55,764 nt of DNA from a virus. The notes under the pieces were generated by a model, which saw nothing but the letters and a program-made list of their open reading frames with translations, was not told the origin of the DNA and did not search any database. The stretch lies in the IMG/VR virus record IMGVR_UViG_3300033402_000018. One strand, given 5' to 3'. Positions within the stretch are counted from its first letter, which is position 1. Each line of letters opens with the position of its first letter. Positions 3,723-32,497 of the stretch are shown piece after piece. The position numbers were made by a program, and so were the translations under genes.

Positions 3723-4046
3723 ATGGTCACATTGACACCCGGAGCGGTAAAGAAAGTCAAGGAAATCATGGAGCAGCAAGACCCGAAGCCAGCCGCACTG
3801 CGTCTTGGCGTTATTGGCGGCGGATGCTCCGGCTTTCAGTATTCTATGCAGTTCGAGAATGAGAAGGGCATGATGGACAAGTCCTTCGAGTTCGACGGTC
3901 TTACGTTGATCGTTGACGCTACATCGTACATGTATCTCGACGGCTGCGAAGTTGATTACCTTGAGACGCTCGAAGCCAGCGGCTTCAAGTTCAACAACCC
4001 GAACGTGAAAAGCACCTGTGGGTGCGGTCAGAGCTTCAACGCATGA
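3723..4046 (+). CDS. A-type Fe-S cluster carrier (IscA/ErpA/HesB family)
   Basis: GGGCSGFQY and C-terminal CGCGQSF three-Cys signature; 107 aa. Confidence 0.9.
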   Translation: MVTLTPGAVKKVKEIMEQQDPKPAALRLGVIGGGCSGFQYSMQFENEKGMMDKSFEFDGLTLIVDATSYMYLDGCEVDYLETLEASGFKFNNPNVKSTCGCGQSFNA

Positions 4047-4552: not shown

Positions 4553-4969
4553 ATGTACTCTGAAAAAGTAATCGACCACTACAACAACCCGCGTAATGTT
4601 GGCTCGCTGGACAAAGCATCGCCAGACGTGGGGACAGGTCTGGTTGGTGCGCCGGAGTGCGGCGACGTAATGAAGCTTCAGATCAAGGTGGAAAACAATG
4701 TCATTGTTGACGCTAAGTTCAAAACTTTTGGCTGCGGCAGTGCTATTGCTTCTAGCTCGCTCGCGACTGAATGGGTTAAAGGCAAGACAACTGATGAAGC
4801 CCTCGCCATTAAAAACACCGAGATCGTCAAAGAACTCGCCCTCCCACCTGTAAAGATTCACTGTTCAGTGCTCGCCGAAGACGCGATTCGCGCCGCGATT
4901 GCTGACTGGAAAAAGAAGCAAGATGCCGAAAAAGCCAAAGAAGAAAAAGCCCATCACGAAGCGCGATAA
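4553..4969 (+). CDS. iscU: Fe-S cluster assembly scaffold IscU
   Basis: YSEKVIDHYNNPRNVG..GAPECGDVMKL..FKTFGCGSAIASSS..LPPVKIHCSVLAEDA; canonical Cys/Asp ligand set. Confidence 0.92.
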   Translation: MYSEKVIDHYNNPRNVGSLDKASPDVGTGLVGAPECGDVMKLQIKVENNVIVDAKFKTFGCGSAIASSSLATEWVKGKTTDEALAIKNTEIVKELALPPVKIHCSVLAEDAIRAAIADWKKKQDAEKAKEEKAHHEAR

Positions 4970-12351: not shown

Positions 12352-13185
12352 ATGGCGAACAAACCCAGAACCGACTCGCTGGGTGACAGAATGAAGCGCT
12401 ACGAAGCAACCACGCGCTTCCTGTTGCCGCGCCGCACTTACACAATTCTTCGCGTTGATGGTCGTGCGTTCCACACGTGGACTCGCGGGCTTGACCGTCC
12501 CTATGACCGCAACTTCATGGCGTGCATGAACGAAGCCGCGCTCGAACTTTGCCAGCAGATCGCGGGAGCGCAGTTCGCTTACGTGCAGTCCGACGAAATC
12601 AGCCTGTTGGCTGTGGACTTCCTTGACATCAAAACCGAGCCGTGGTTTGAAGGCGGCGTGCAGAAATGGGCCAGCGTCGGCGCATCCATCGCAACGATGG
12701 CGTTCAACAATTGCTTGCTTCGGCTGAAGGGGGCAAACCTCGACGAGTCTGAGCTTAAGATCACCAAGAAGCTCCCGAACGCCACGTTCGACGCCCGCGT
12801 GTTCACCATCCCAGACTTGGTGGAAGTGGAAAATTATTTCGTGTGGCGGCAGCAGGATGCGGAACGCAACTCCGTCACAATGCTGGCGCAGAGCTACGCT
12901 TCCCACAAGCAACTCATGGGGAAAAATCGCGCCGCGCAGCATGAGATCATCCACAAAGCCGGGGACAATTGGGCGAAGCATCCTGTGCGTTTCAAGCATG
13001 GCGCTGTGATCCGCCGTGCCGCTGAAAACGAAGTCTGGACGGAAGTCGGCACCCATCATTTCAACTGGGTTGTGGACGAAGACACCCCAGCCTTCACCAA
13101 AGACCGCGCTTACATCCGTGGTCTGGTTCCTGTTGTTTGGGACAACGACCTTCTGGTCAGAAAGGCGGCAGCGAATGGAGAATAG
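12352..13185 (+). CDS. Thg1-like tRNA-His guanylyltransferase / 3'-5' RNA polymerase
   Basis: GDRMKRYE..LRVDGRAFHTWTRGL..AYVQSDEISLL..FDARVFTIP..NYFVWRQQDAERNS matches Thg1 hallmarks (RxDGxxFH, SDE, FDxR, WRQxD). Confidence 0.88.
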   Translation: MANKPRTDSLGDRMKRYEATTRFLLPRRTYTILRVDGRAFHTWTRGLDRPYDRNFMACMNEAALELCQQIAGAQFAYVQSDEISLLAVDFLDIKTEPWFEGGVQKWASVGASIATMAFNNCLLRLKGANLDESELKITKKLPNATFDARVFTIPDLVEVENYFVWRQQDAERNSVTMLAQSYASHKQLMGKNRAAQHEIIHKAGDNWAKHPVRFKHGAVIRRAAENEVWTEVGTHHFNWVVDEDTPAFTKDRAYIRGLVPVVWDNDLLVRKAAANGE

Positions 13186-19854: not shown

Positions 19855-21417
19855 ATGATGACACCGCAGGAAGAACGAATTCTCAACGCGGCACGCCAAA
19901 AGATCGAAGAGCAGCAGGAATTGCTCAGACGCCTGACCGCCCCAGCCTACCACCTTGGGATCGTCTGCGGTGTGTATCCGAAGACCGTGGTTGTGGACAC
20001 AGGTTCCCAACTCTTTGAGCTTGACCGCATCGAAGGCGGACCAGACATCAAGGTTGGTCAGGGCGTTGACATTCATCCGCAGACCGGGCAGATCGCCAAA
20101 GTTTCAGACTTCGTTTCCTACGGAAGCACCGGGACGGTATCGCAGATCGACGGCAACATCATCCAGATCAGTGTTCCGTCCGGCCTCATCACCACCGAAT
20201 ATTCGCTCATCCCGGTAAGCATCGGCGACAAGATCGTGATGAACAGCACGAACCACGTCATCATGAAGAAGCTGCCGACCGCGTCGAAGTATGCCTTCAA
20301 GACGAGCGCCGTGCTGGACTGGAAAGACATCGGCGCTTGCGAAGACGCGAAAAAAGAACTTATCGCCGCGCTCGAAACGCCTTACACCGCATCGCCGCTG
20401 TTCAAATTCTTCAACAAGGATCAGATCAAAGGCGCACTACTTTGGGGACGCCCCGGCAACGGCAAGACTTTGCTTGGACGAGCCGCCGCTGGCGCACTGG
20501 CGCGTATGCACGGCGTGGAAGCTAGGGACTCAGGCTTTATCTACATCAAGGGGCCAGAAATCCTTGACAAGTACGTTGGCGAAACTGAATCTCAGATTCG
20601 CGAAGCTTTCGCCTATGCCAAAGCGCACTTCAAGAAACACGGCTATCCGGCTGTCATGTTCGTGGACGAAGCGGACGCCGTAATGATGCGCCGTGGTTCG
20701 CGCACCGCATCCGGCATGGAAATGACCATCGTCCCGCAGTTCCTTTCTGAGATGGACGGCATCGAAGACAGCGGCGTGTTCGTGCTGCTGGCTACCAACC
20801 GTGCGGATACGCTCGATCCGGCAATCATTCGTCCCGGTCGCTGCGACCGCCGCGTCCATGTGGCACCACCCAACAAGCTCAACGCCCCGGAGATTTGGGA
20901 CATTCACATGCGCAAAGTGCCTGTAACTAACGGCGTGAGCAAAGAACAGTTGATCCAGAGCGTGAATGACACGCTGTTCAGCGAGCAATTTCCGCTCTAT
21001 TTGATTGACACGCCCAACGGACGCAAGACGTTCAGCCTTGGGAATCTTGTGTCAGGCGCTATGATCGCGGGAGCCGTGGAACGGGCATCAGCCATTGGCA
21101 TTGACCGTAATCTCATGGCCCTGTGCGGCACAACTCAGCCGACGCAGGATCAGCTTGCAAAGGTTGACCCAAAGAAATTTGACGGTCTCTCGCAAGGGGA
21201 CTTCACCGCCGCGCTTGCCGCCATGCACAAAGAGCAGTACGGCATGAACCATTTCGATGAACTGCGTGAGTTTATCGACATGCAGAAGCTCGAAGTCACG
21301 TCCATTGAGCAATGCCACGATGGGCAAAAGATCGAACGCCCGAAGCCGCAGCCGCGCAAGGAACCAGAGATCATCGGTGTTATTCCAATGCCGACAGGGA
21401 AGAAGTTCGACGCATAA
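19855..21417 (+). CDS. Mpa/ARC-type (proteasome-associated-like) AAA+ unfoldase
   Basis: N-terminal coiled coil (EERILNAARQKIEEQQELLRRL) plus OB-like segment. Walker A GRPGNGKT, Walker B VMFVDEAD. IKGPEILDKYVGETESQIR..TIVPQFLSEMDG..ATNRADTLDPAIIRPGRCDR closely parallels Mpa IKGPELLNKFVGETERHIR..VVPQLLSEIDG..ASNREDMIDPAILRPGRLD. Confidence 0.85.
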   Translation: MMTPQEERILNAARQKIEEQQELLRRLTAPAYHLGIVCGVYPKTVVVDTGSQLFELDRIEGGPDIKVGQGVDIHPQTGQIAKVSDFVSYGSTGTVSQIDGNIIQISVPSGLITTEYSLIPVSIGDKIVMNSTNHVIMKKLPTASKYAFKTSAVLDWKDIGACEDAKKELIAALETPYTASPLFKFFNKDQIKGALLWGRPGNGKTLLGRAAAGALARMHGVEARDSGFIYIKGPEILDKYVGETESQIREAFAYAKAHFKKHGYPAVMFVDEADAVMMRRGSRTASGMEMTIVPQFLSEMDGIEDSGVFVLLATNRADTLDPAIIRPGRCDRRVHVAPPNKLNAPEIWDIHMRKVPVTNGVSKEQLIQSVNDTLFSEQFPLYLIDTPNGRKTFSLGNLVSGAMIAGAVERASAIGIDRNLMALCGTTQPTQDQLAKVDPKKFDGLSQGDFTAALAAMHKEQYGMNHFDELREFIDMQKLEVTSIEQCHDGQKIERPKPQPRKEPEIIGVIPMPTGKKFDA

Positions 21418-21426
21418 GGGGAAGTC

Positions 21427-21639
21427 ATGAGCCAGAGACAGATCGAGAGACCGCAAGAGAAAAAGCCACGTCCGGCTGGCAATCAAGGGCCAACACTGGA
21501 TGTCAACATTGACATTGGCGGCGAAGAAGTTGATGACATCTTGCGCGATCTGGATGTGATCGAGCACCCGGAAAAATACTCGCAAGAACAGCGCGATTGC
21601 CAGTGTTTCCGCCCGTCAAGGGGCGGTGGATTCAGATAA
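21427..21639 (+). CDS. Pup-like small protein (prokaryotic ubiquitin-like family resemblance), C-terminus non-canonical
   Basis: 70 aa, 10 nt after the AAA+ stop. MSQRQIER.. vs Pup MAQEQTKR... GEEVDDILRDLDVIE vs Pup EETDDLLDEIDDVLE. Ends SRGGGFR, not GGQ/GGE. Confidence 0.45.
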   Translation: MSQRQIERPQEKKPRPAGNQGPTLDVNIDIGGEEVDDILRDLDVIEHPEKYSQEQRDCQCFRPSRGGGFR

Positions 21640-21956
21640 TGCAGAAACGAGAGCAAAGACCGTTGCTGCCCGTCAGCAAACGTGGTCAAATCTCGCCGAT
21701 GCAGGTTGAAGTGGCGTCGGCGGACAGCGTGCTGCATGTTCTCGACAGCTACAGGAAGAACCTTGCGGACTTGCTCCGTAAGACAGACGTAGCCGAAAAA
21801 ACGAAAGAATCTCACTGTGACATCAATTGTGAGTGTCCGCCGTGTATTTCCGGCGATTGCTCGAACTGTGTTGTTGACCGATTGAAGAAAACGCGTCAGT
21901 TCGGTGATCCAGCCATTGTTGATGCGTGCAACCAATATCGCGGGGGGAAAATGTGA
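21639..21956 (+). CDS. hypothetical Cys-rich protein
   Basis: ATG 21639 on TAATG junction; HCDINCECPPCISGDCSNC cluster; 105 aa. Confidence 0.5.
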   Translation: MQKREQRPLLPVSKRGQISPMQVEVASADSVLHVLDSYRKNLADLLRKTDVAEKTKESHCDINCECPPCISGDCSNCVVDRLKKTRQFGDPAIVDACNQYRGGKM

Positions 21957-22264
21957 ACGAATTTCTCAAACTGGTTTACCTCAGCATTGCGGTTGGTGCG
22001 ATCAGCTTGGTCATCACGAAGAGCCAGATTTTCAATGCCTTTCACGCTTGGCTTGAGAAGCGTTCTCTCTTTCTCGAAGACATGTTATCCTGTCCTTGGT
22101 GTACCAGCCATTGGGTTTCCCTGTTCTTCGTTCTCGTCTACCATCCACTGGTGGTAAACGTCTGGGCACCGCTTGACTACTTCGTGAGTATCATGATTGT
22201 GGTCGCGCTGTCTTCAATAACTGCAAGATTGATCTGGTCGGCGTATAAGCCGATGATGGGATAG
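21953..22264 (+). CDS. DUF1360-like membrane protein
   Basis: GTG 21953 (GTGA overlap, GGGGGG SD); LSCPWCTSHWVSLFFVLVY matches the CPWCxSxW motif of DUF1360. Confidence 0.55.
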   Translation: MNEFLKLVYLSIAVGAISLVITKSQIFNAFHAWLEKRSLFLEDMLSCPWCTSHWVSLFFVLVYHPLVVNVWAPLDYFVSIMIVVALSSITARLIWSAYKPMMG

Positions 22265-22274
22265 CCGGAGGAGT

Positions 22275-24353
22275 ATGACTAACAAAGAACTGGTGCAGAT
22301 GTTCAACGCCGATCTGGAAGCAGCGCGGGACGCCTACTACAAGAAGGCGGAACCGATCATGACCGACGCGGAATATGACGCTATGGAAAAGAGTCTCCGC
22401 AATCTCATTACCGTGTTTCCGGGACTCGCCGAGTTCGCACCTGTCCTGAAGACGGTCGGCTCTGACCTTACGTCCAGTGGGCGCATCAAACACGCTGTCC
22501 CGATGCTCAGCATCGAAAACCAGTACACTGAAGAGGATTTCACTGGTCAGTATGACAAGTGGGGCGCGAACATGCCTGTTGTGCTGGAGCCGAAGTTTGA
22601 CGGCATCAGCGTCTCCATCCTGTATCTCAACGGCGTGCTTGAACGGGCGCTGACTCGCGGCGACGGCACGTCCGGCGAGAACATCACCGCAGCGGTTAAA
22701 GCGGTCAAATCCATCCCCCAGACTCTTCCGATAGATGTGTTCACCAGCCAATGCGAGATTCGCGGTGAGCTTGTGATGGCAAACGCCACACTCGAACGCA
22801 TCAACCGGGAAGCGGCGGCGATAGGCGGTAAGCAGTATTCCAGCACGCGCAACTTGACTGCCGGAACGATGAAGCAGCGTGACATGGACATCGTTGCCAG
22901 TCGAGACATTTTGCTCATGCCGTGGGATGTGCTTAGTGTCAGCGCTTGGAAAGATGGCAAGCAGTTATTGCCGGACAGCCGTTACGAGCGCTTGCTTCTA
23001 CTGAGCGAACACGGCTTTGAAGAGCCAAAGGGTATTCGTTGCTTCCTTCGGGATGCGATCATCCCGGCGCTTCACATTCTCCTGAAGCACAACAAAGAGC
23101 GTGCAGTTAATTGTGACGGCGTTGTCATGAAGGTAGATAGTGTGACCGCGTGCAAAGAGCTTGGCAACGGCTCCAAATACACGAACTGGCAGACCTGCTT
23201 CAAACCACAGTCTGCGTCCGGCACTACATACTTGCGTGAGATTCAATGGCAAGTGGGGCGCACGGGCGTCATCAGTCCGGTTGCGAAATGTGACGTGGTT
23301 GTCTTGGCTAGTGCTAACGTCACCAGTGCCAGCTTGAACAACATCACGTTCATCCGCAAGATGGGCCTGAAGCTGGGCGCGAAAGTTGAAATGCTGCGCT
23401 CCGGCGATGTCATCCCGCAGATCGTGCGCGTCATTGATGACGGTGACGAAGAGATCAACCCTCCAACTCACTGTCCTGAATGCAACAGTCTGACGGAGTT
23501 GCGGGACGAAGGCGGGCAAGGCATTATCCAGTGCTTCTGCACCAGCCCGTTCTGCCCCGCACAGATCATAGGCTACCTTTCGTTCGTCGGCAGTCGTGAC
23601 GTTCTGGAGATCGACGGTCTGGGGCCGGAAATGGCGCGTAAGCTGGTCGAAGGTGAGTTCACTCGCGATCTTGCTGAGCTTTATGAATTTCAGCAGGACA
23701 TGATGAACATCCTCACGAAATTTGACGAGGAAACACTGATTCGCGGCGGACGCAAAAAAGGCTTTGACGCCACTCTTCCGAAGATGGTTCGGTCATTGGA
23801 GAAGGCGAAAACCGCGCCGTGGGAACGCTGGATCAAAGCGCTTGGCATTCCGATGATTGGCGAGACGCTGGGCAAGGTGGTCGCGTCTACTCTCGATCTT
23901 CAGGAAAAGAGCATGGCTACGCTGGATGTTGACCTGATCCTTTTTGCCGGGAAAGAAGTAGACGGGTTCGGTGAAGCCAAGATGAGCGCGATCCGAAGCT
24001 GGGCGGAACGAAACGGTGAACTCTGCCGGAAGCTCTACGGACTTGGTATTCGTCCTACTCCGATGGAAAAGGTGGTGGTCGCCGAAGGCGCACCACTGAA
24101 AGGTGTCGTCTTCTGCATCACCGGGGAGTTCAGCGAAGACCGCGATGCCCTGACGAAGAAGCTGGTTGCGCTTGGCGCGGAAGCGAAGTCCGGTGTCACT
24201 AAGAAAATCAACCTCTTAATCGTCGGGGAGAGCGCCGGAAAAACAAAATTGACCAAAGCCAAGGAACTTGGCATCAAACAGGTAGGCAAAGAGTGGCTGG
24301 AACAGGCGCTTGGCGGACTTAAGCCTGATACCTTCGCCGCTGAGAGGGCGTAA
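22275..24353 (+). CDS. ligA: NAD-dependent DNA ligase LigA
   Basis: adenylation motif EPKFDGISV (KxDG), Zn finger CPECNS..C..C, HhH region, C-terminal BRCT (GVVFCITGEF); 692 aa. Confidence 0.93.
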   Translation: MTNKELVQMFNADLEAARDAYYKKAEPIMTDAEYDAMEKSLRNLITVFPGLAEFAPVLKTVGSDLTSSGRIKHAVPMLSIENQYTEEDFTGQYDKWGANMPVVLEPKFDGISVSILYLNGVLERALTRGDGTSGENITAAVKAVKSIPQTLPIDVFTSQCEIRGELVMANATLERINREAAAIGGKQYSSTRNLTAGTMKQRDMDIVASRDILLMPWDVLSVSAWKDGKQLLPDSRYERLLLLSEHGFEEPKGIRCFLRDAIIPALHILLKHNKERAVNCDGVVMKVDSVTACKELGNGSKYTNWQTCFKPQSASGTTYLREIQWQVGRTGVISPVAKCDVVVLASANVTSASLNNITFIRKMGLKLGAKVEMLRSGDVIPQIVRVIDDGDEEINPPTHCPECNSLTELRDEGGQGIIQCFCTSPFCPAQIIGYLSFVGSRDVLEIDGLGPEMARKLVEGEFTRDLAELYEFQQDMMNILTKFDEETLIRGGRKKGFDATLPKMVRSLEKAKTAPWERWIKALGIPMIGETLGKVVASTLDLQEKSMATLDVDLILFAGKEVDGFGEAKMSAIRSWAERNGELCRKLYGLGIRPTPMEKVVVAEGAPLKGVVFCITGEFSEDRDALTKKLVALGAEAKSGVTKKINLLIVGESAGKTKLTKAKELGIKQVGKEWLEQALGGLKPDTFAAERA

Positions 24354-27506: not shown

Positions 27507-29327
27507 ATGCACATCAAACCGCAAGCAAAGATCGCTCTGGTAGTTGTTCTGGTTCTGGGCGTAGTCTTCGGACTCCGCACCGCCGCAGAGCATGGATTGA
27601 TCCCAACCCCCGGCATCATGAAGGCGTTGGTGCCTCAGAAGGCTGTCCTGCCTGATGTAAAGGATGCTCAAGTTCAGAACGTCGCCCCTGTAGCCCTCCC
27701 GCAAGACTCCCCGGCTAACGTTCAAGCCACGCCGATTCGTGGCGCGATCTGGGAATGGAACGCTCAGATGGGCATGATCTTCGCCAACGGCGGCGCAACC
27801 ACGACCGCTGGTTCGTTGATGGCGAAGCGCAACGTCAACCTGATTCTGTATCGTCAGGACGACACCAGCAAGATGCAAGAAGACCTGATCGCTTGCGCCA
27901 AGGAACTGCATGACGGCAATCCGTCTTGCTCGAACGGTGCAAACTTCGTGGTCATCATGGGAGACGGCGCTGGTCAGTTTGCCGCCGCAGTCAACCCGCA
28001 GCTTGCTAAGCTGGGCCCGCAATATCTCGTGAAGGTCATCGCCGCCACTGGTTACAGCCGTGGTGAAGATGCTTTCATGGCTCCCCCGGACGTGAAGAAG
28101 AGTCCCGCCGCTGCGAAGGGACTTCTGGTTGAAGGCGTGCTCCGCGATGGCGACTGGAATATTGCCATGAAGTGGGCTGCTGACAACAACATCCCCAACA
28201 ACCCGGACGAGAAGACCTACGACGCCAACGCTCTCAACTGGATTAACGCGCCGGACTACAATACCGCCGCGTCTGATTACGTTGCTGGCAAGTGCGAAGA
28301 CCGCAAGGTCGTAAAAGACGGTCACCCGACTGGCGAAACGAAGCACGTCTGCGTCAATGCGGTCGTGACTTGGACTCCCGGCGACGTGACGGCTGCTACT
28401 CAAAAGGGCGGCTTGGTCAAGGTGGTTTCGTCCAAGCAGTACCGTTCGCAGATGCCCGCTGTGGTCCTTGGCCCCGGCAAGTTCTTCGCCGACAATCGTG
28501 ACGAAGTAACCAACATGATCGCTGCCATCTTTGAAGGTGGAGATCAGGTTAAGGCGTTTGACACGTCTCTGCGCAAGGCTGCGGTCATTTCGACCAAGGT
28601 CTACAATGACGAAGGCGATCAGACTTCGCACAACGGCGATTTCTGGTATCGCTACTTCAAGGGCGTCCCGTACAAGGATCAGACCACGGGCGCGACTGTT
28701 GAGCTTGGCGGCTCCGCAGTGAACAACCTTGATGACAACCTCATCCTGTTCGGCTTGAAGCCCGGAACCAACGACAACTTCCGCAGCACCTACACGGTGT
28801 TTGCCAACATCGACGTTCAACAGTATCCGCAGTTGTTCAAAGAGACGCCGATTCCAGACGTGAAGTTGGTCGAAGACAAGTCTTACATCACCGGAGCACA
28901 GGCTGTTCTGTCCGGCGAAGGTGACACTGGTTCTGAAGCCAGCGCTCCGGCTTACGAGCAGGAAGCCAGCGGCGAGACCGTTTCCAGCCGCTCGTACAAC
29001 ATCAACTTCCAAACGGGAAGTGGGCAGCTTACGCCGCAAGGCGAACAGCAGCTTCGCGATCTGAAAGATGGTCTGGCAATCACCGGACTGTTCATTCAGG
29101 TGGACGGATACACCGACAACACTGGCTCTGATAGCGTTAACATCCCGCTGTCTCAGGCTCGTGCGGAGTCCGTGCGCAACTTCCTGCAACGCAACTATCC
29201 CGGCAACTTCCCGAACAAACGGTTCGCGGTCGCCGGACATGGTTCGCAGAACCCAATCGCGTCGAACGCCACGGCGGACGGTAAAGCTCAGAACCGCCGC
29301 GTGACGATCACGTTGAAAGGCAACTAA
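27507..29327 (+). CDS. periplasmic substrate-binding-like domain fused to OmpA-family peptidoglycan-binding domain
   Basis: N-terminal TM/signal (IALVVVLVLGVVFGL). C-terminus FQTGSGQLTPQGEQQL..VDGYTDNTGSDSVNIPLSQARAESV..GHGSQNPIASNATADGKAQNRRVTI is a classic OmpA_C motif. The central ~400 aa look SBP-like, next to ABC genes. Confidence 0.75.
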   Translation: MHIKPQAKIALVVVLVLGVVFGLRTAAEHGLIPTPGIMKALVPQKAVLPDVKDAQVQNVAPVALPQDSPANVQATPIRGAIWEWNAQMGMIFANGGATTTAGSLMAKRNVNLILYRQDDTSKMQEDLIACAKELHDGNPSCSNGANFVVIMGDGAGQFAAAVNPQLAKLGPQYLVKVIAATGYSRGEDAFMAPPDVKKSPAAAKGLLVEGVLRDGDWNIAMKWAADNNIPNNPDEKTYDANALNWINAPDYNTAASDYVAGKCEDRKVVKDGHPTGETKHVCVNAVVTWTPGDVTAATQKGGLVKVVSSKQYRSQMPAVVLGPGKFFADNRDEVTNMIAAIFEGGDQVKAFDTSLRKAAVISTKVYNDEGDQTSHNGDFWYRYFKGVPYKDQTTGATVELGGSAVNNLDDNLILFGLKPGTNDNFRSTYTVFANIDVQQYPQLFKETPIPDVKLVEDKSYITGAQAVLSGEGDTGSEASAPAYEQEASGETVSSRSYNINFQTGSGQLTPQGEQQLRDLKDGLAITGLFIQVDGYTDNTGSDSVNIPLSQARAESVRNFLQRNYPGNFPNKRFAVAGHGSQNPIASNATADGKAQNRRVTITLKGN

Positions 29328-29405: not shown

Positions 29406-29621
29406 ATGAGACCGAAACCAGCAGACGTTGAATTGAAGATCGCTGAGAGTGTCGGCTGGTACATTGACGTAACTAACGAAGAGAAGTGGCTGGTGCGTGA
29501 CGGCGGCGTGAATCAATGGGTCGGCCCCGGCGCAGCTACGGACGCGGAACTGAAATTGTGGGTTCTGCTGCTGACCAAGATTGTGACGAAAGAAGCCAAG
29601 GAATTTTTGGAGAGCCTGTAA
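29406..29621 (+). CDS. hypothetical protein
   Basis: 71-aa ORF right after terminator and GCATCTAAG motif. Confidence 0.5.
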   Translation: MRPKPADVELKIAESVGWYIDVTNEEKWLVRDGGVNQWVGPGAATDAELKLWVLLLTKIVTKEAKEFLESL

Positions 29622-30406
29622 TGAGTGAGTTCATTTCCGCTTACACACCGAACAAACCCACCAAGGTATCCACGGTCAAGATGCTGATCGCTAGCTATGC
29701 CGCGTTCTTCTTCGTGTTCTGGTTCTTCTCGCCGTTCCCGTTCCTGCCTTCAATCGGTGAAACATGGGCAGCGTGGGTTGAGCAGTGGGGGCAAGGCTTA
29801 GGCGGGGAACTCATTACTAGCTTCGAAGCCAACTTGCAAGCTATCGCTCTTTCTTCTCTCATCTCGCTGGGACTTGCCTATTTGACAGTGCTCGCCGGAT
29901 TCCGTCCAATCGTCACGTTCCTGTCCAAGCTACGCTTCCTTTCAATGGTCGGCTTGAGCTTTTTCTTCACGGTTGCCACGAAGACACAGCACCAACTCAA
30001 GATCAGCTTGTTGGTGTTCAGCATCAGTGTGTTCTTCGTGACCGGGATGGCTGACGTGATCGAGTCAATTCCGAAAGAACAGTATGATCTTGCACGCACG
30101 CTGCGCATGGGGCCGTGGCGCACCGTCTGGGAAGTAGTAGTGCTGGGTCAAATTGACAAGGCGTTTGATGTGCTGCGCCAGAACGCCGCCATCGGATGGA
30201 TGATGCTTACGATGATTGAAAGCATGGTTCGTTCCGAAGGCGGCATTGGCGCTATGCTCACCACCGCGAACAAACACTTTTACCTTAACGCAGTCTTTGC
30301 CATCCAGATCACCATTCTGTTGATGGGGTTGGGGCAGGACTACTTGATCGGCGCATCGAAGAAGCTCTTCTGTCCGTATGCCGCGCTGGGATCGGAGCGC
30401 AAGTGA
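29621..30406 (+). CDS. ABC transporter permease (NitT/TauT-type binding-protein-dependent family)
   Basis: ATG 29621 (TAATG). About 6 TM helices. EAA-like loop ESIPKEQYDLARTLRMGPWRTVWEVVVLGQI. Confidence 0.8.
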   Translation: MSEFISAYTPNKPTKVSTVKMLIASYAAFFFVFWFFSPFPFLPSIGETWAAWVEQWGQGLGGELITSFEANLQAIALSSLISLGLAYLTVLAGFRPIVTFLSKLRFLSMVGLSFFFTVATKTQHQLKISLLVFSISVFFVTGMADVIESIPKEQYDLARTLRMGPWRTVWEVVVLGQIDKAFDVLRQNAAIGWMMLTMIESMVRSEGGIGAMLTTANKHFYLNAVFAIQITILLMGLGQDYLIGASKKLFCPYAALGSERK

Positions 30407-31448: not shown

Positions 31449-31622
31449 ATGAATGCCGCGATCAAAGAAGTTATCGAGAAGCACGTCTGGGCGTATGGGC
31501 CTAACCGCAAAGGCTGCGTTATGTTCATGACGGATGGCGTCAGGGAAGTAGCCAACGAACTTGAAATCAGCTATCGGGCGGCGGAAGAGCTTGTCCGATG
31601 CTGGATTGGGGAGACATTCTAA
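31449..31622 (+). CDS. hypothetical protein
   Basis: ATG 31449, 57 aa, frame of ORF 31383..31622. Confidence 0.4.
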   Translation: MNAAIKEVIEKHVWAYGPNRKGCVMFMTDGVREVANELEISYRAAEELVRCWIGETF

Positions 31623-32497
31623 TGGCGGCACTTTATCCATACACCTACGGGCCTACGCTTCTTAAAATCGACAACGTTTGCCTATCGGCGTCGTCTGACG
31701 GTCTGCGGTTGCTCGAACACGAAGAACCGGGGAGCCGCCCCATTCTGAAGAACGTGAGCGCCGAAATCAAGAAGATCGACCGTGTTGGATACGTTAACGG
31801 TCAGATCGTAGGATTCATCGGCCCGTCTGGTATCGGCAAAACACAGCTTTTCCGCATCATTGCCGGACTCAACAAGCCAACATCAGGTTCCGTCACGATC
31901 AATGGCGGCAAAGTGGTGCAGGCAGGTGAAGTAGGCGTCGTGGCGCAGAATTACCCGCTCTTTGCGCATCGCACGGTCATGAGTAACCTCATGCTCGCCG
32001 CCAAACAGAAAGAGAAAGACCCCAAAGTAGCGCATGACAAAATCATGACGTTCTTGAACGAATTCAAGCTGGCGGACAAGGCCCCATTGTATCCGGCGCA
32101 GTTATCAGGTGGGCAGAAGCAGCGCATCGCCATCATTCAGCAAATCCTGTGCTCAGAGCATTTCCTGCTCATGGATGAGCCTTTCTCCGGCTTGGACATC
32201 ATCGTAGAAGGCAAATGCACTGAGTTGATCTTGAAGGTTGCCAACATGGACGGCTTGAACACCGTGATCGTAGTCACGCATGACATTTCAGCCGCCGCAG
32301 CCATCGCCGATCACATCTGGGCATTGGGGCGTGAGCATGATGCTGAAGGCAACCCGCTCCCCGGCGCGAGTATTGTGAAGACCTACGACCTGATAAACGA
32401 AGGTCTGTGCTGGACACAGTTGGGTGAACACGCGATGGTTCAACCAAACATGGTTGAGTTCATCCGCCAAGTCAAGGAAGATTTCTACAAGTTCTAA
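31622..32497 (+). CDS. ABC transporter ATP-binding protein (NitT/TauT-like)
   Basis: Walker A GPSGIGKT, signature LSGGQKQR, Walker B LLMDEPFSGLD, H-loop VVTHD; TAATG junction. Confidence 0.88.
   Translation: MAALYPYTYGPTLLKIDNVCLSASSDGLRLLEHEEPGSRPILKNVSAEIKKIDRVGYVNGQIVGFIGPSGIGKTQLFRIIAGLNKPTSGSVTINGGKVVQAGEVGVVAQNYPLFAHRTVMSNLMLAAKQKEKDPKVAHDKIMTFLNEFKLADKAPLYPAQLSGGQKQRIAIIQQILCSEHFLLMDEPFSGLDIIVEGKCTELILKVANMDGLNTVIVVTHDISAAAAIADHIWALGREHDAEGNPLPGASIVKTYDLINEGLCWTQLGEHAMVQPNMVEFIRQVKEDFYKF

What the first reader, a model, noticed from the sequence alone, without database searches (positions are those of the whole stretch)
21427..21639. Pup-like mini-protein immediately downstream of the Mpa-like ATPase
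Seen in sequence:
- A 70-aa ORF starts 10 nt after the AAA+ stop, behind SD AAGGGGA.
- Its N-terminus MSQRQIER resembles Pup MAQEQTKR.
- Its central helix GEEVDDILRDLDVIEHPEKY resembles the Mpa-binding helix of Pup, EETDDLLDEIDDVLEENAEDF (recalled M. tuberculosis sequence).
- It is disordered and charged overall.
- It ends ..SRGGGFR rather than the GGQ/GGE needed for PafA ligation.

Established knowledge: Pup is recognised by the Mpa coiled coil through this helix.

Inference: this may be a cognate tag, adaptor, decoy or inhibitor for the adjacent phage unfoldase or for the host Mpa. No PafA/Dop-like ligase is visible in this window.
Basis: partly seen in the sequence, partly recalled or inferred. 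Interest (0 to 1): 0.75.

Follow-up and report, generated by a model that had tools for sequence, protein, structure and literature searches.

The report
Pup-like partner of phage Mpa-type unfoldase
A small disordered protein encoded right after a phage's proteasome-type unfolding motor resembles the bacterial degradation tag Pup in the part that grips the motor. It ends in a cysteine motif instead of Pup's ligation site and travels with a cysteine-bearing membrane protein, which suggests a ligase-free way of feeding such motors.

Summary
A 70-aa ORF (21427-21639) lies 9 nt after a 520-aa AAA+ gene and is a real gene under purifying selection.

The ATPase is Mpa/ARC-type: its N-region models as a coiled-coil helix plus two OB domains, and the top 41 PDB fold matches are all Mpa or ARC.

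The mini-protein is not a Pup family member:
- no significant Pfam or NCBIfam hit;
- no GGQ/GGE end;
- no PafA/Dop or proteasome gene in the window.

Targeted profile comparisons do link it to Pup and UBact, over the N-terminal tail and first half of the helix. That region overlaps the helix by which Pup binds Mpa. hhalign gives 79-89% probability, above all shuffles. In reciprocal HMM searches each family picks the other out of thousands of neighbouring ORFs (top 10 of 5,020 all Pup/UBact).

GGFR is a clade-specific extension. The small ORF is tightly co-inherited with a DUF1360-like membrane protein carrying CPxCxSHW (21 of 22 loci, P = 6e-8).

Best reading: a ligase-free, Pup-like recognition element for the phage unfoldase, whose Cys end couples to partners. 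This reading is inferred and has not been shown experimentally.

The parts
19855..21417 (+). Mpa/ARC-type AAA+ ATPase, 520 aa: N-terminal coiled-coil helix (aa 4-28), two OB-like beta domains (aa 33-140), one classic AAA module. Its C-terminus has no QYL/HbYX motif.
   Evidence: Pfam AAA 5e-31. Best NCBIfam match is TIGR03689 pup_AAA, 1e-67, 229 bits, aa 9-421 on profile 23-460/512, below the 505-bit cutoff. AF2 of aa 1-160 has pLDDT 86. Foldseek top 41 PDB hits are all Mtb Mpa or Rhodococcus ARC. C-terminal tails vary and carry no QYL.
21416..21422 (+). Shine-Dalgarno-like AAGGGGA, overlapping the ATPase stop codon, 4 nt before the ATG
   Evidence: Read directly from the sequence
21427..21639 (+). 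Mini-protein gene (70 aa plus stop): a Pup/UBact-like small disordered protein with a C-terminal Cys motif
21427..21474 (+). Conserved basic, Q-rich N-terminal block MSQRQIERPQEKKPRP (aa 1-16), the candidate pore-entry tail
   Evidence: Q3, E7, K13 invariant and R8, P9, Q10, K12, P14, R15, P16 at >=90%. Aligns with the UBact N-terminal region in hhalign, 41 columns.
21520..21564 (+). Predicted amphipathic acidic helix, aa 32-46 (GEEVDDILRDLDVIE), the candidate coiled-coil-binding element
   Evidence: AF2 helix 32-46. Aligns to Pup TDDLLDEIDDV with the hydrophobic positions matched.
21598..21609 (+). CxC-aromatic motif (C58-Q-C60-F61), the hallmark of the wider family
   Evidence: C58 invariant, C60 >=90%. 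Divergent members end CTCW*, CGCF*, CECW*, CGCWGN*, CKC*, CGC*, CVC*, CEC*.
21625..21636 (+). Clade-specific tail G-G-F-R with invariant terminal Arg. It is absent from divergent members.
21639..21956 (+). Cys-rich 105-aa protein. Its ATG overlaps the mini-protein stop (TAATG). It has a basic N-terminus, a motif I-x-V-x(2,3)-V/A-D-[SDL]-[VL]-L, then a C-x3-C-x-C-x2-C-x4-C cluster. It may be a relative of the mini-protein.
   Evidence: Alignment with orthologs and the L012 ortholog. hhalign to the mini family gives 20%, P 1e-3. The UBact HMM's top hit among phage-locus ORFs is the L005 ortholog, E 0.002.
21953..22264 (+). DUF1360-like membrane protein with three TM segments (103 aa from GTG 21953, overlapping the previous stop). 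Conserved CPWC-T-SHW lies at the start of TM2; the CPWC codons are 22091-22102.
   Evidence: Pfam DUF1360 2e-4, 21.6 bits against a cutoff of 21. phrog_781. The motif is found downstream of 22 of 48 phage ATPase loci, 21 of which also have the Cys-ended small ORF (Fisher P 5.6e-8). Hydropathy and K/R distribution.

Best explanation
The 70-aa protein is a dedicated partner of the adjacent phage Mpa/ARC-type unfoldase and is built like Pup or UBact at its motor-engaging end. It has a disordered basic N-terminal tail and a short acidic amphipathic helix.

By analogy with Pup and Mpa, the helix would dock on the ATPase's N-terminal coiled coil and the tail would enter the pore. This step is inferred.

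The conjugation end of Pup, meaning the PafA/Dop-binding C-terminal half and GGQ/GGE, has been replaced by a CxC(W/F) cysteine motif. The system therefore appears ligase-free. The Cys end most plausibly couples by shared metal (zinc-clasp-like) or thiol chemistry to the co-inherited membrane protein with a cytoplasm-facing CPxC motif. In this clade it may also couple to the intervening Cys-rich protein. That would link those partners to the unfoldase for tethering, extraction, remodelling or regulation. This step is more speculative.

Shown:
- it is a real gene;
- the ATPase has the Mpa architecture;
- sequence similarity to Pup/UBact is limited to the tail and helix;
- the ligation features are absent;
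- the three genes are co-inherited.

Inferred: physical binding, pore entry, and the Cys-mediated coupling.
For: 1. The ATPase has the Mpa/ARC architecture. Its closest cellular relatives, at 28-36% identity over nearly the full length, are proteasome ATPases of Verrucomicrobiota, Poribacteria, Nitrospirota/Nitrospinota and Actinomycetota.
2. A small ORF follows the ATPase directly (from an 8-nt overlap to a 48-nt gap) in every core-clade and divergent locus inspected. A Cys-ended small ORF lies within 500 nt in 26 of 48 distinct phage-type loci.
3. hhalign against a phylogenetically broad Pup profile gives 86% (P 5e-6) for the core clade, 89% (P 2e-6) for 23 non-core members alone, and 79% for all 45. 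Against UBact it gives 68% (P 5e-5) over 41 columns covering the N-terminus and helix. Zero of 100-120 column shuffles per comparison reach the real scores, and reversed profiles score 8-20 against 19-31. The accepted homologs Pup and UBact score only 3.6% against each other.
4. Reciprocal HMMER against natural backgrounds: the phage-family HMM ranks authentic Pup/UBact, labelled only by their C-terminal signature, as 10 of its top 10 among 5,020 ORFs (P 4e-22). The Pup HMM's top 11 hits among 2,791 phage-locus ORFs are all mini-proteins, and the UBact HMM's top 13 are mini-proteins plus the Cys-rich neighbour. In the window alone the mini-protein is the Pup HMM's best hit of 694 ORFs.
5. AF2 predicts a disordered protein with one helix at aa 32-46. 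Pup is likewise disordered and forms a helix (residues 21-51) on Mpa's coiled coil, and its N-terminus is needed for pore entry (PMC3769308; PMC5515868).
6. The Cys-ended small ORF and the CxxCxSHW membrane ORF co-occur in 21 loci, with 5 and 1 alone and 21 with neither (Fisher P 5.6e-8). The K/R-rich loop before the CxxC suggests a cytoplasmic face.
7. There is precedent for an intermolecular CxC + CxxC zinc clasp between a membrane protein's tail and a soluble partner, CD4/CD8 with Lck (PMC10768021).
8. There is precedent for Pup/ARC acting without a 20S proteasome, in Corynebacterium (PMC5515868).
Against: - There is no significant curated-family hit. Pfam Pup is touched by 1 of 45 members at E=1.7. 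PDB Pup chains are not matched at E<=10. The exhaustive HMM search of 1.84 billion proteins returned no Pup.
- The shared region is short (about 14-23 columns for Pup) and compositionally biased. With a narrow Mycobacteriales Pup profile the probability was only 36%, and it fell to 12% when divergent members were added.
- In the most divergent viral set the Pup and UBact HMMs enrich for Cys-ended ORFs only modestly (P about 3e-4).
- The reversed Pup profile still reaches scores of 18-20, so part of the signal is a generic acidic amphipathic pattern.
- No interaction with the ATPase was predicted or measured here.
- The metal or thiol coupling to the membrane protein rests only on motif co-occurrence and an analogy.
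Confidence: 0.45

Rival explanations
1. The protein is an unrelated small cysteine-motif protein, for example a metal-binding or regulatory peptide, or simply a substrate or assembly factor of the ATPase and membrane-protein module. On this view its likeness to Pup is convergent or a by-product of being a short acidic amphipathic helix in a disordered protein. It is functionally tied to the neighbouring genes but does not engage the ATPase the way Pup engages Mpa.
For: There is no curated-family hit and no Pup among the exhaustive HMM hits. The aligned region is short and biased, and reversed Pup still scores 18-20. The signal fades in divergent members. The most conserved and defining feature is the Cys motif, not the helix.
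Against: Each family picks the other out of thousands of natural ORFs in reciprocal searches. The similarity is replicated in non-core lineages at 89%. The order of elements matches Pup (tail, helix, functional C-terminus), as does the size. The invariable partner is an ATPase with the very coiled-coil plus double-OB N-domain that recognises Pup.
Confidence: 0.3
2. The protein is a decoy or inhibitor aimed at a host Mpa/ARC-proteasome system. It would occupy the host unfoldase's coiled coil without being ligatable, blocking degradation of pupylated or UBact-tagged proteins during infection.
For: The Mpa-engaging part is retained while the ligation end is lost. The closest cellular relatives of the phage ATPase are from phyla that have Pup or UBact systems.
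Against: The gene is always coupled to the phage's own ATPase and to a membrane protein, which a simple decoy would not need. The host is unknown. The conserved Cys motif has no role in this model.
Confidence: 0.1
3. The protein is a true conjugated tag. It would be attached covalently to targets, either after C-terminal processing (for example removal of F-R to expose GG) by a ligase encoded elsewhere in the roughly 450-kb genome or by the host, or through its cysteines.
For: In this clade the tail contains GG (GGFR). One divergent member ends ...CGCWGE. Only 55.8 kb of a much larger genome was visible.
Against: GGFR is absent from most of the family, which ends right at CxC(W/F). Neither the window nor the neighbouring regions of related contigs contain a Pup-ligase family protein. 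The PafA/Dop-binding C-terminal half of Pup is not conserved.
Confidence: 0.07

Closest known systems
Pup (prokaryotic ubiquitin-like protein, PF05639) with Mpa/ARC
   Same: About 60-70 aa and intrinsically disordered. It has a Q/K/R-rich N-terminal tail followed by an acidic amphipathic helix whose hydrophobic positions align (VDDILrDLDvI against TDDLLDEIDdV). It is encoded next to an ATPase with the coiled-coil, double-OB and AAA architecture. Profile-profile probability is 79-89% over the helix.
   Different: There is no GGQ/GGE end, no FVxxYVQKGG C-terminal half, no PafA/Dop and no 20S genes nearby, and no Pfam-level match. It ends in CxC(W/F). Cellular pup lies about 3 kb downstream of mpa, whereas this gene abuts the ATPase.
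UBact (Pup homolog of Verrucomicrobiota, Nitrospirota, Nitrospinota, Poribacteria, Armatimonadota)
   Same: The alignment is the longest found (41 columns), covering the N-terminal basic and Pro-rich tail, a GP..P.V motif and the start of the helix (xDDLLK). The phage ATPase's closest cellular relatives include the phyla that carry UBact.
   Different: UBact ends ...VDPxQxxRYRQRTGQ/E and is encoded with Dop/PafA and proteasome genes. The phage protein has none of these.
CD4/CD8-Lck zinc clasp and Rad50 zinc hook (intermolecular Zn(Cys)4 sites)
   Same: A CxC motif in one partner and a CxxC motif in another, one of them a membrane protein with the motif at the cytoplasmic face. This is the model proposed for how the C-terminal end couples.
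   Different: This is purely an analogy. There is no sequence relationship, and metal binding has not been tested.
Adaptor and anti-adaptor peptides of AAA+ unfoldases (for example SspB for ClpX, lambda CIII for FtsH)
   Same: Small, partly disordered proteins that bind an unfoldase through a short helix or peptide and change what it processes. Some are phage-encoded.
   Different: They belong to different unfoldase families with different binding sites, and none has a Cys-motif terminus or a membrane-protein partner. This comparison comes from general knowledge and was not tested.

Membership tests
Pup (PF05639 / ubiquitin-like protein Pup) | Sequence matches the curated family profile above threshold | tested here: not met
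   The window protein has no Pfam or NCBIfam hit at E<=1. Of 45 family members scanned at E<=10, one hits PF05639 at E=1.7.
Pup (PF05639 / ubiquitin-like protein Pup) | C-terminal GGQ or GGE (the Glu gamma-carboxylate is ligated to a substrate Lys) | tested here: not met
   The protein ends GGFR with an invariant Arg. Wider family members end in CxC(W/F). The chemistry is defined in PMC5515868.
Pup (PF05639 / ubiquitin-like protein Pup) | Dop deamidase and/or PafA ligase encoded with it | tested here: not met
   No Pup_ligase family protein among about 103 window ORFs or in the precomputed Pfam lists for neighbouring genes of related contigs. The rest of the roughly 450-kb genomes was not seen.
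Pup (PF05639 / ubiquitin-like protein Pup) | Small intrinsically disordered protein that forms a helix which binds the Mpa coiled coil | tested here: inconclusive
   Disorder plus one helix is predicted. The helix aligns to Pup's at 79-89% hhalign probability. Binding itself was not testable.
Pup (PF05639 / ubiquitin-like protein Pup) | Genomic association with an Mpa/ARC-type ATPase | tested here: met
   The gene lies directly downstream of an ATPase whose N-domain matches only Mpa/ARC structures. The pairing is conserved.
UBact | C-terminal ...YRQR[TS]G[QE] and an operon with Dop/PafA and the proteasome | tested here: not met
   Authentic UBact sequences were harvested next to cellular Mpa. 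The phage family lacks this terminus. The similarity covers the N-terminal region and helix only, at 63-73%.
Mpa/ARC proteasome ATPase (TIGR03689), for the neighbouring gene | N-terminal coiled-coil helix, double OB inter-domain and a single AAA module | tested here: met
   AF2 gives a helix at 4-28 plus two five-stranded beta domains, pLDDT 86. The Foldseek top 41 hits are Mpa or ARC, including 3m9b over 161 columns. The AAA module is shown.
Mpa/ARC proteasome ATPase (TIGR03689), for the neighbouring gene | Score above the equivalog cutoff, and a C-terminal QYL motif that docks on the 20S core | tested here: not met
   229 bits against a cutoff of 505. The C-termini are KKFDA, KSKLN, KSRVN and KQRYD(S). 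The QYL role is described in PMC5515868.
DUF1360 (PF07098), for the downstream membrane protein | Profile match at or above the gathering score | tested here: met
   21.6 bits against a cutoff of 21, E 2e-4. Orthologs carry weak or faint DUF1360 marks. The match is marginal.

The most novel reading that the evidence does not exclude
Large phages carry a ligase-free analogue of the Pup system. A genetically encoded Pup/UBact-like 'handle' is recognised by a phage Mpa-type unfoldase, and it attaches to its cargo through a C-terminal CxC motif instead of an isopeptide bond. The CxC motif would form a zinc clasp or thiol link with a CPxC motif on a small membrane protein. The motor would thereby be tethered to the membrane protein, or would extract or remodel it, for example to time lysis or remodel the envelope. 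This would be a new mode of substrate targeting for proteasomal-type AAA+ motors.
Probability: 0.2. Interest if true: 0.88.

Novelty: new variant of a known kind. Interest (0 to 1): 0.72.

Why it matters
Pup-type tagging is known only from cellular lineages and depends on Dop and PafA. I found no description of phage-encoded Mpa-type ATPases with a Pup-like partner in the literature library.

If the model holds, three things follow:
- The Mpa recognition module (tail plus helix) can be separated in evolution from the ligation chemistry.
- Phages use proteasome-type unfoldases without a proteasome.
- Targeting can run through a cysteine or metal link to a membrane protein.

The module is small, with three or four short genes, and it recurs on dozens of viral contigs. 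It is therefore directly testable by co-expression, pull-down, metal analysis and cryo-EM. The Pup-like handle might also be useful as a portable, ligase-free degron or tether.

Tried and rejected
- **Pfam, PHROGs and NCBIfam scans of the mini-protein:** no hits.
- **Family profile against PDB sequences:** only chance hits. A 2-Cys peroxiredoxin helix VDEILRIIDAIQHHEKY scored E 0.12; no Pup chain appeared.
- **Exhaustive HMM search of 1.84 billion representatives:** only 7 hits, 4 of them true family members (P0154, P0155, P0157, P0158); P0156, P0159 and P0160 are repetitive or unrelated matches. No Pup.
- **Narrow Mycobacteriales Pup profile:** it gave a misleadingly weak result, 36% and then 12%. 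I replaced it with a broad Pup and UBact set harvested next to cellular Mpa genes.
- **GGFR as an HbYX/QYL-like proteasome-docking tail:** rejected as a family feature, because divergent members lack it.
- **ATPase and mini-protein in the same frame, separated by a single TAA:** readthrough would fuse them. This holds in the window, L001 and L007 but not in L005, so I treat it as coincidence.
- **First genome-contig scan:** it found nothing, because the confirmation sequence was only the N-domain. It was repeated with the full-length protein.
- **First shuffle script:** timed out.
- **The listing of cluster members:** gave no taxon names, so the host remains unknown.
- **Pseudo-multimer structure prediction:** not attempted.
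- **Paralogy of the downstream Cys-rich protein with the mini-protein:** suggestive only (20%, P 1e-3; the UBact HMM hits the L005 ortholog at E 0.002).
Full report
**1. The observation**

The ORF is in the sequence exactly as described. It runs 21427-21639 on the + strand, starts with ATG and encodes 70 aa: MSQRQIERPQEKKPRPAGNQGPTLDVNIDIGGEEVDDILRDLDVIEHPEKYSQEQRDCQCFRPSRGGGFR. It begins 9 nt after the TAA stop (21415-21417) of a 520-aa AAA+ gene (19855-21417). AAGGGGA lies at 21416-21422.

It is a real gene. A word-indexed search of 5.8 billion proteins found 33 homologs of 66-70 aa at 55-100% identity. Their alignment shows strong constraint, with invariant Q3, E7, K13, L39, D43, E46, H47, P48, E49, Y51, Q55, C58, P63 and R70. 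Between orthologs dN is 0.09-0.23 within the clade while synonymous sites are saturated.

The protein is 36% charged. The N-terminal 20 residues carry net +3, the middle net -9, and the tail net +3. AlphaFold2 with the family alignment predicts disorder apart from one helix at aa 32-46, with mean pLDDT 66.

**2. The neighbouring ATPase is Mpa/ARC-type**

- Its best NCBIfam match is TIGR03689, the Pup-system proteasome ATPase (E 1e-67). The match covers aa 9-421 against profile positions 23-460 of 512, but the 229-bit score is below the 505-bit equivalog cutoff.
- AlphaFold2 of aa 1-160, using 52 homologs, gives a confident model (pLDDT 86). It has a helix at 4-28 followed by two five-stranded beta domains.
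- Foldseek against the PDB returns Mtb Mpa or Rhodococcus ARC as all of the top 41 matches. These include 3m9b (coiled coil plus inter-domain, 161 aligned columns), 3fp9, 5kzf, 7ljf, 7px9 and 2wfw.
- The AAA module is the classic clade, with VAT/p97 D2 and ARC as the best PDB sequence matches.
- The closest cellular relatives are proteasome ATPases at 28-36% identity over almost the full length. They come from Verrucomicrobiota, Poribacteria, Nitrospirota/Nitrospinota and Actinomycetota, which are the phyla that carry Pup or UBact.
- Unlike Mpa, the protein has no C-terminal QYL-type motif. Its tails are variable: KKFDA, KSKLN, KSRVN, KQRYD. The role of QYL is described in PMC5515868.

**3. 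Context**

The window is phage-like, with dense genes almost all on the + strand. They include nucleotide-metabolism genes, a DNA ligase, Thg1 and HNH endonucleases.

Relatives sit on contigs of 100-465 kb, and one sits on an 894-kb contig that is about twice 447 kb. This looks like a clade of huge phages.

Synteny is conserved: HD phosphohydrolase, ATPase, mini-protein, Cys-rich protein, DUF1360-like membrane protein, DNA ligase.

About 103 window ORFs were scanned against Pfam. None belongs to the Pup-ligase/Dop, proteasome or Clp families.

**4. Is it Pup? Standard tests say no**

- The mini-protein has no Pfam, PHROGs or NCBIfam hit.
- When 45 family members were scanned one by one against all of Pfam at E<=10, only one touched PF05639 (Pup), at E=1.7. 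No family recurred.
- A family profile did not match PDB Pup chains at E<=10.
- An exhaustive HMM search of 1.84 billion representative proteins found only 7 hits, none of them Pup.
- The C-terminus is not GGQ/GGE.

On the defining features of Pup, namely the profile match, the ligatable terminus and Dop/PafA (PMC5515868), membership fails.

**5. Targeted comparisons show a specific resemblance to the motor-engaging part of Pup and UBact**

With a narrow Mycobacteriales Pup alignment, hhalign gave only 36% probability (the real score of 23.3 still beat all 400 column shuffles, which had a maximum of 18.6). That fell to 12% when divergent family members were added.

I then harvested 25 phylogenetically diverse Pup sequences and 9 UBact sequences. 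Each lies about 3 kb downstream of a cellular Mpa gene in the genome loci. Results against these broad profiles:

| Query | Target | Probability | P | Aligned columns |
|---|---|---|---|---|
| Core clade | Pup | 86% | 4.8e-6 | 22 |
| Core clade | UBact | 68% | 4.6e-5 | 41 (N-terminal tail through the helix) |
| 17-member family alignment A6 | Pup / UBact | 72% / 73% | 3e-5 | 18 / 42 |
| 23 non-core members only | Pup | 89% | 2.2e-6 | 23 |
| 23 non-core members only | UBact | 18.5% | 1.3e-3 | 19 |
| All 45 members | Pup / UBact | 79% / 64% | 1.6e-5 / 6.8e-5 | 17 / 39 |

Controls:
- None of the 100-120 column shuffles per comparison reached the real scores.
- Reversed profiles scored 8-20, against 19-31 for the real ones.
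- As a yardstick, Pup against UBact, which are accepted homologs, scored only 3.6% (P 0.012).

I also ran unfiltered reciprocal HMMER searches against natural-sequence backgrounds:
- Among 5,020 six-frame ORFs of the cellular loci, 41 are Pup or UBact when labelled only by their C-terminal signature, which the phage family lacks. The wide-family (A6) HMM ranks them as 10 of its top 10 (hypergeometric P 4e-22) and 18 of its top 20.
- Among 2,791 ORFs of the phage loci, the Pup HMM's top 11 hits are all mini-proteins (E 0.18-0.39, with noise starting at 2.1). The UBact HMM's top 13 are mini-proteins plus the Cys-rich neighbour (best E 0.002).
- In the window alone, the mini-protein is the Pup HMM's best hit of 694 ORFs (E 0.059).

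The aligned hydrophobic positions are I38, L39, L42 and I45 against Pup L39, L40, I43 and V46. They fall within the segment that forms the Mpa-bound helix (Pup residues 21-51) and shows NMR perturbation on Mpa binding (PMC3769308).

Caveats:
- The shared segment is short and compositionally biased.
- None of these scores would survive a database-wide search.
- In the most divergent viral set the enrichment is modest (P about 3e-4).

I therefore rate homology with Pup/UBact as plausible but unproven. I put it at roughly even odds. I rate functional analogy somewhat higher.

**6.

Divergent family members were found directly after ATPases of 41-55% identity, and on viral and MAG contigs. They keep the basic tail and the helix but end at or next to a CxC(W/F) motif. 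Examples are CECW*, CGCWGE*, CGCWGN*, CTCW*, CGCF*, CCGCCG*, GCFCFR*, DRCRC*, DDDCKC*, GPCGC*, RGCVC*, HNCEC*, DNCGC* and ERGCGCW*.

In the window's clade the same motif is C58-x-C60-F61. PxxxGGFR is a roughly 10-residue clade-specific extension after it.

One member (L122) starts MSAQEQIKKRSHKGGGGGGS, which is strikingly like Mtb Pup's MAQEQTKRGGGGG.

A third gene is co-inherited: a small DUF1360-like membrane protein with three TM segments and a conserved CP(Y/W)CxSHW motif at the start of TM2. Across 48 distinct phage-type ATPase loci the counts are (Fisher P 5.6e-8):

| | Membrane ORF present | Membrane ORF absent |
|---|---|---|
| Cys-ended small ORF present | 21 | 5 |
| Cys-ended small ORF absent | 1 | 21 |

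The loop before the CxxC is rich in K and R. By the positive-inside rule the motif should face the cytoplasm (this is an inference).

In the window's clade a Cys-rich 105-aa protein lies between the two genes. It has its own basic N-terminus, an IxVxxVDDLL-like motif and a C-x3-C-x-C-x2-C-x4-C cluster. It may be a relative of the mini-protein, but the evidence is weak.

**7. Most likely mechanism**

- *Shown:* an Mpa-architecture unfoldase is invariably followed by a small disordered protein whose tail and helix resemble those of Pup and UBact. The Pup ligation end and the ligases are absent. A Cys motif replaces that end, and a CPxC membrane protein is co-inherited.
- *Inferred:* the helix docks on the ATPase coiled coil and the tail enters the pore, as for Pup and Mpa (PMC3769308, PMC5515868). 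The helix is shorter (about 15 residues against Pup's 30), in keeping with the shorter coiled-coil helix of the phage ATPase (25 residues).
- *More speculative:* the CxC end couples to the CPxC motif of the membrane protein, and here perhaps to the Cys-rich protein. The link would be a shared metal, as in the CD4/CD8-Lck CxC + CxxC zinc clasp (PMC10768021), or thiol chemistry. The partner would then be tethered to, extracted by or remodelled by the motor.

The lack of a QYL tail and of protease genes suggests a stand-alone unfoldase. Pup/ARC also functions without a 20S core in Corynebacterium (PMC5515868).

**8. Rivals**

| Rival | Confidence |
|---|---|
| Convergent or unrelated small Cys-motif protein that works with the module in some other way | 0.30 |
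| Decoy for a host Mpa | 0.10 |
| Truly conjugated tag, processed or ligated by unseen enzymes | 0.07 |

An artefact is excluded by the conservation and selection data.

**9. Novelty**

Seven full-text searches found no description of phage Mpa-type ATPases with a Pup-like partner, of this Cys-ended family, or of a function for DUF1360.

I file the finding as a new variant of a known kind. It is a Pup/UBact-like recognition element separated from pupylation chemistry, embedded in a recurrent three-gene phage module. I do not file it as a member of the Pup family.

Noticed in passing
window 50013-52460 (+): An 815-aa ORF with Major Vault Protein shoulder (PF11978, 3e-26) and vault repeat (PF17795, 5e-11) domains. 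An MVP-like protein is unusual in a phage genome.
   Followed up: no
window 3723-4046 and 4553-4969 (+): The phage encodes Fe-S cluster assembly proteins. One is IscA-like (it ends CGCGQSFNA; Fe-S_biosyn 9e-22) and one is IscU/NifU-like (NifU_N 8e-53). This may be relevant to the cysteine-rich proteins of the ATPase module, but no link was tested.
   Followed up: partly
window 12352-13185 (+); also L001 2374-3282 and L005 544-1398: A Thg1-like tRNA-His guanylyltransferase (PF04446, 2e-26) is conserved in this phage clade.
   Followed up: no
Contigs of P0003/P0183 (894,233 bp), P0201 (447,784), P0229 (453,890), P0168 (458,496), P0286/P0288 (about 462-465 kb): Members of the clade sit on contigs of 447-465 kb, which suggests huge-phage genomes of about 450 kb. 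The 894-kb JGI contig is about twice that size and may be a concatemer assembly.
   Followed up: no
window 22275-24353 compared with L001 10924-12036 and L005 11056-12207: At the same syntenic position, the window and L007/L012 carry an NAD-dependent LigA-type ligase, while L001-L005 carry an ATP-dependent ligase (PF01068). This is a non-orthologous replacement within one clade.
   Followed up: no
L011 7418-7618, 7609-7824 and 9427-10947: One divergent phage has two tandem Cys-ended mini-proteins (ending ...CTCW and ...CGCF) after the ATPase, and a second 506-aa AAA gene 2 kb downstream.
   Followed up: partly
L013 1-5588 compared with 6001 onward: The left flank holds cellular-type genes (PhoU, alpha/beta hydrolase, SDR, TetR, cupin). 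It is followed by the ATPase, mini-protein and DUF1360 module and many small ORFs. This looks like a prophage junction and could identify a host.
   Followed up: no
L104, L117, L123, L131, L114 (ORFs directly after the ATPase): In loci without the CPxC membrane protein, the small post-ATPase ORF often ends in a CPxCG...C/H knuckle, for example ...CPICGQESCPYTRRA and ...CPNCGSYH. This may be a self-contained metal site in place of the split CxC + CPxC arrangement.
   Followed up: no
window 19855-21639: The ATPase and the mini-protein are in the same reading frame, separated only by TAA GGG GAA GTC. Stop-codon readthrough would therefore fuse them. The same holds in L001 and L007 but not in L005, so it is probably coincidence.
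   Followed up: partly
L014 (513-kb contig labelled Gammaproteobacteria MAG) and L015 (Saccharibacteria MAG): These 'genome' contigs carry the full ATPase, Cys-ended mini-protein and CPYC membrane protein module. They may be huge-phage sequence binned into MAGs.
   Followed up: partly
window 27507-29327, 29516-30406, 31598-32497: An OmpA-C-domain protein and ABC-transporter permease-like and ATPase genes are conserved in the phage clade.
   Followed up: no
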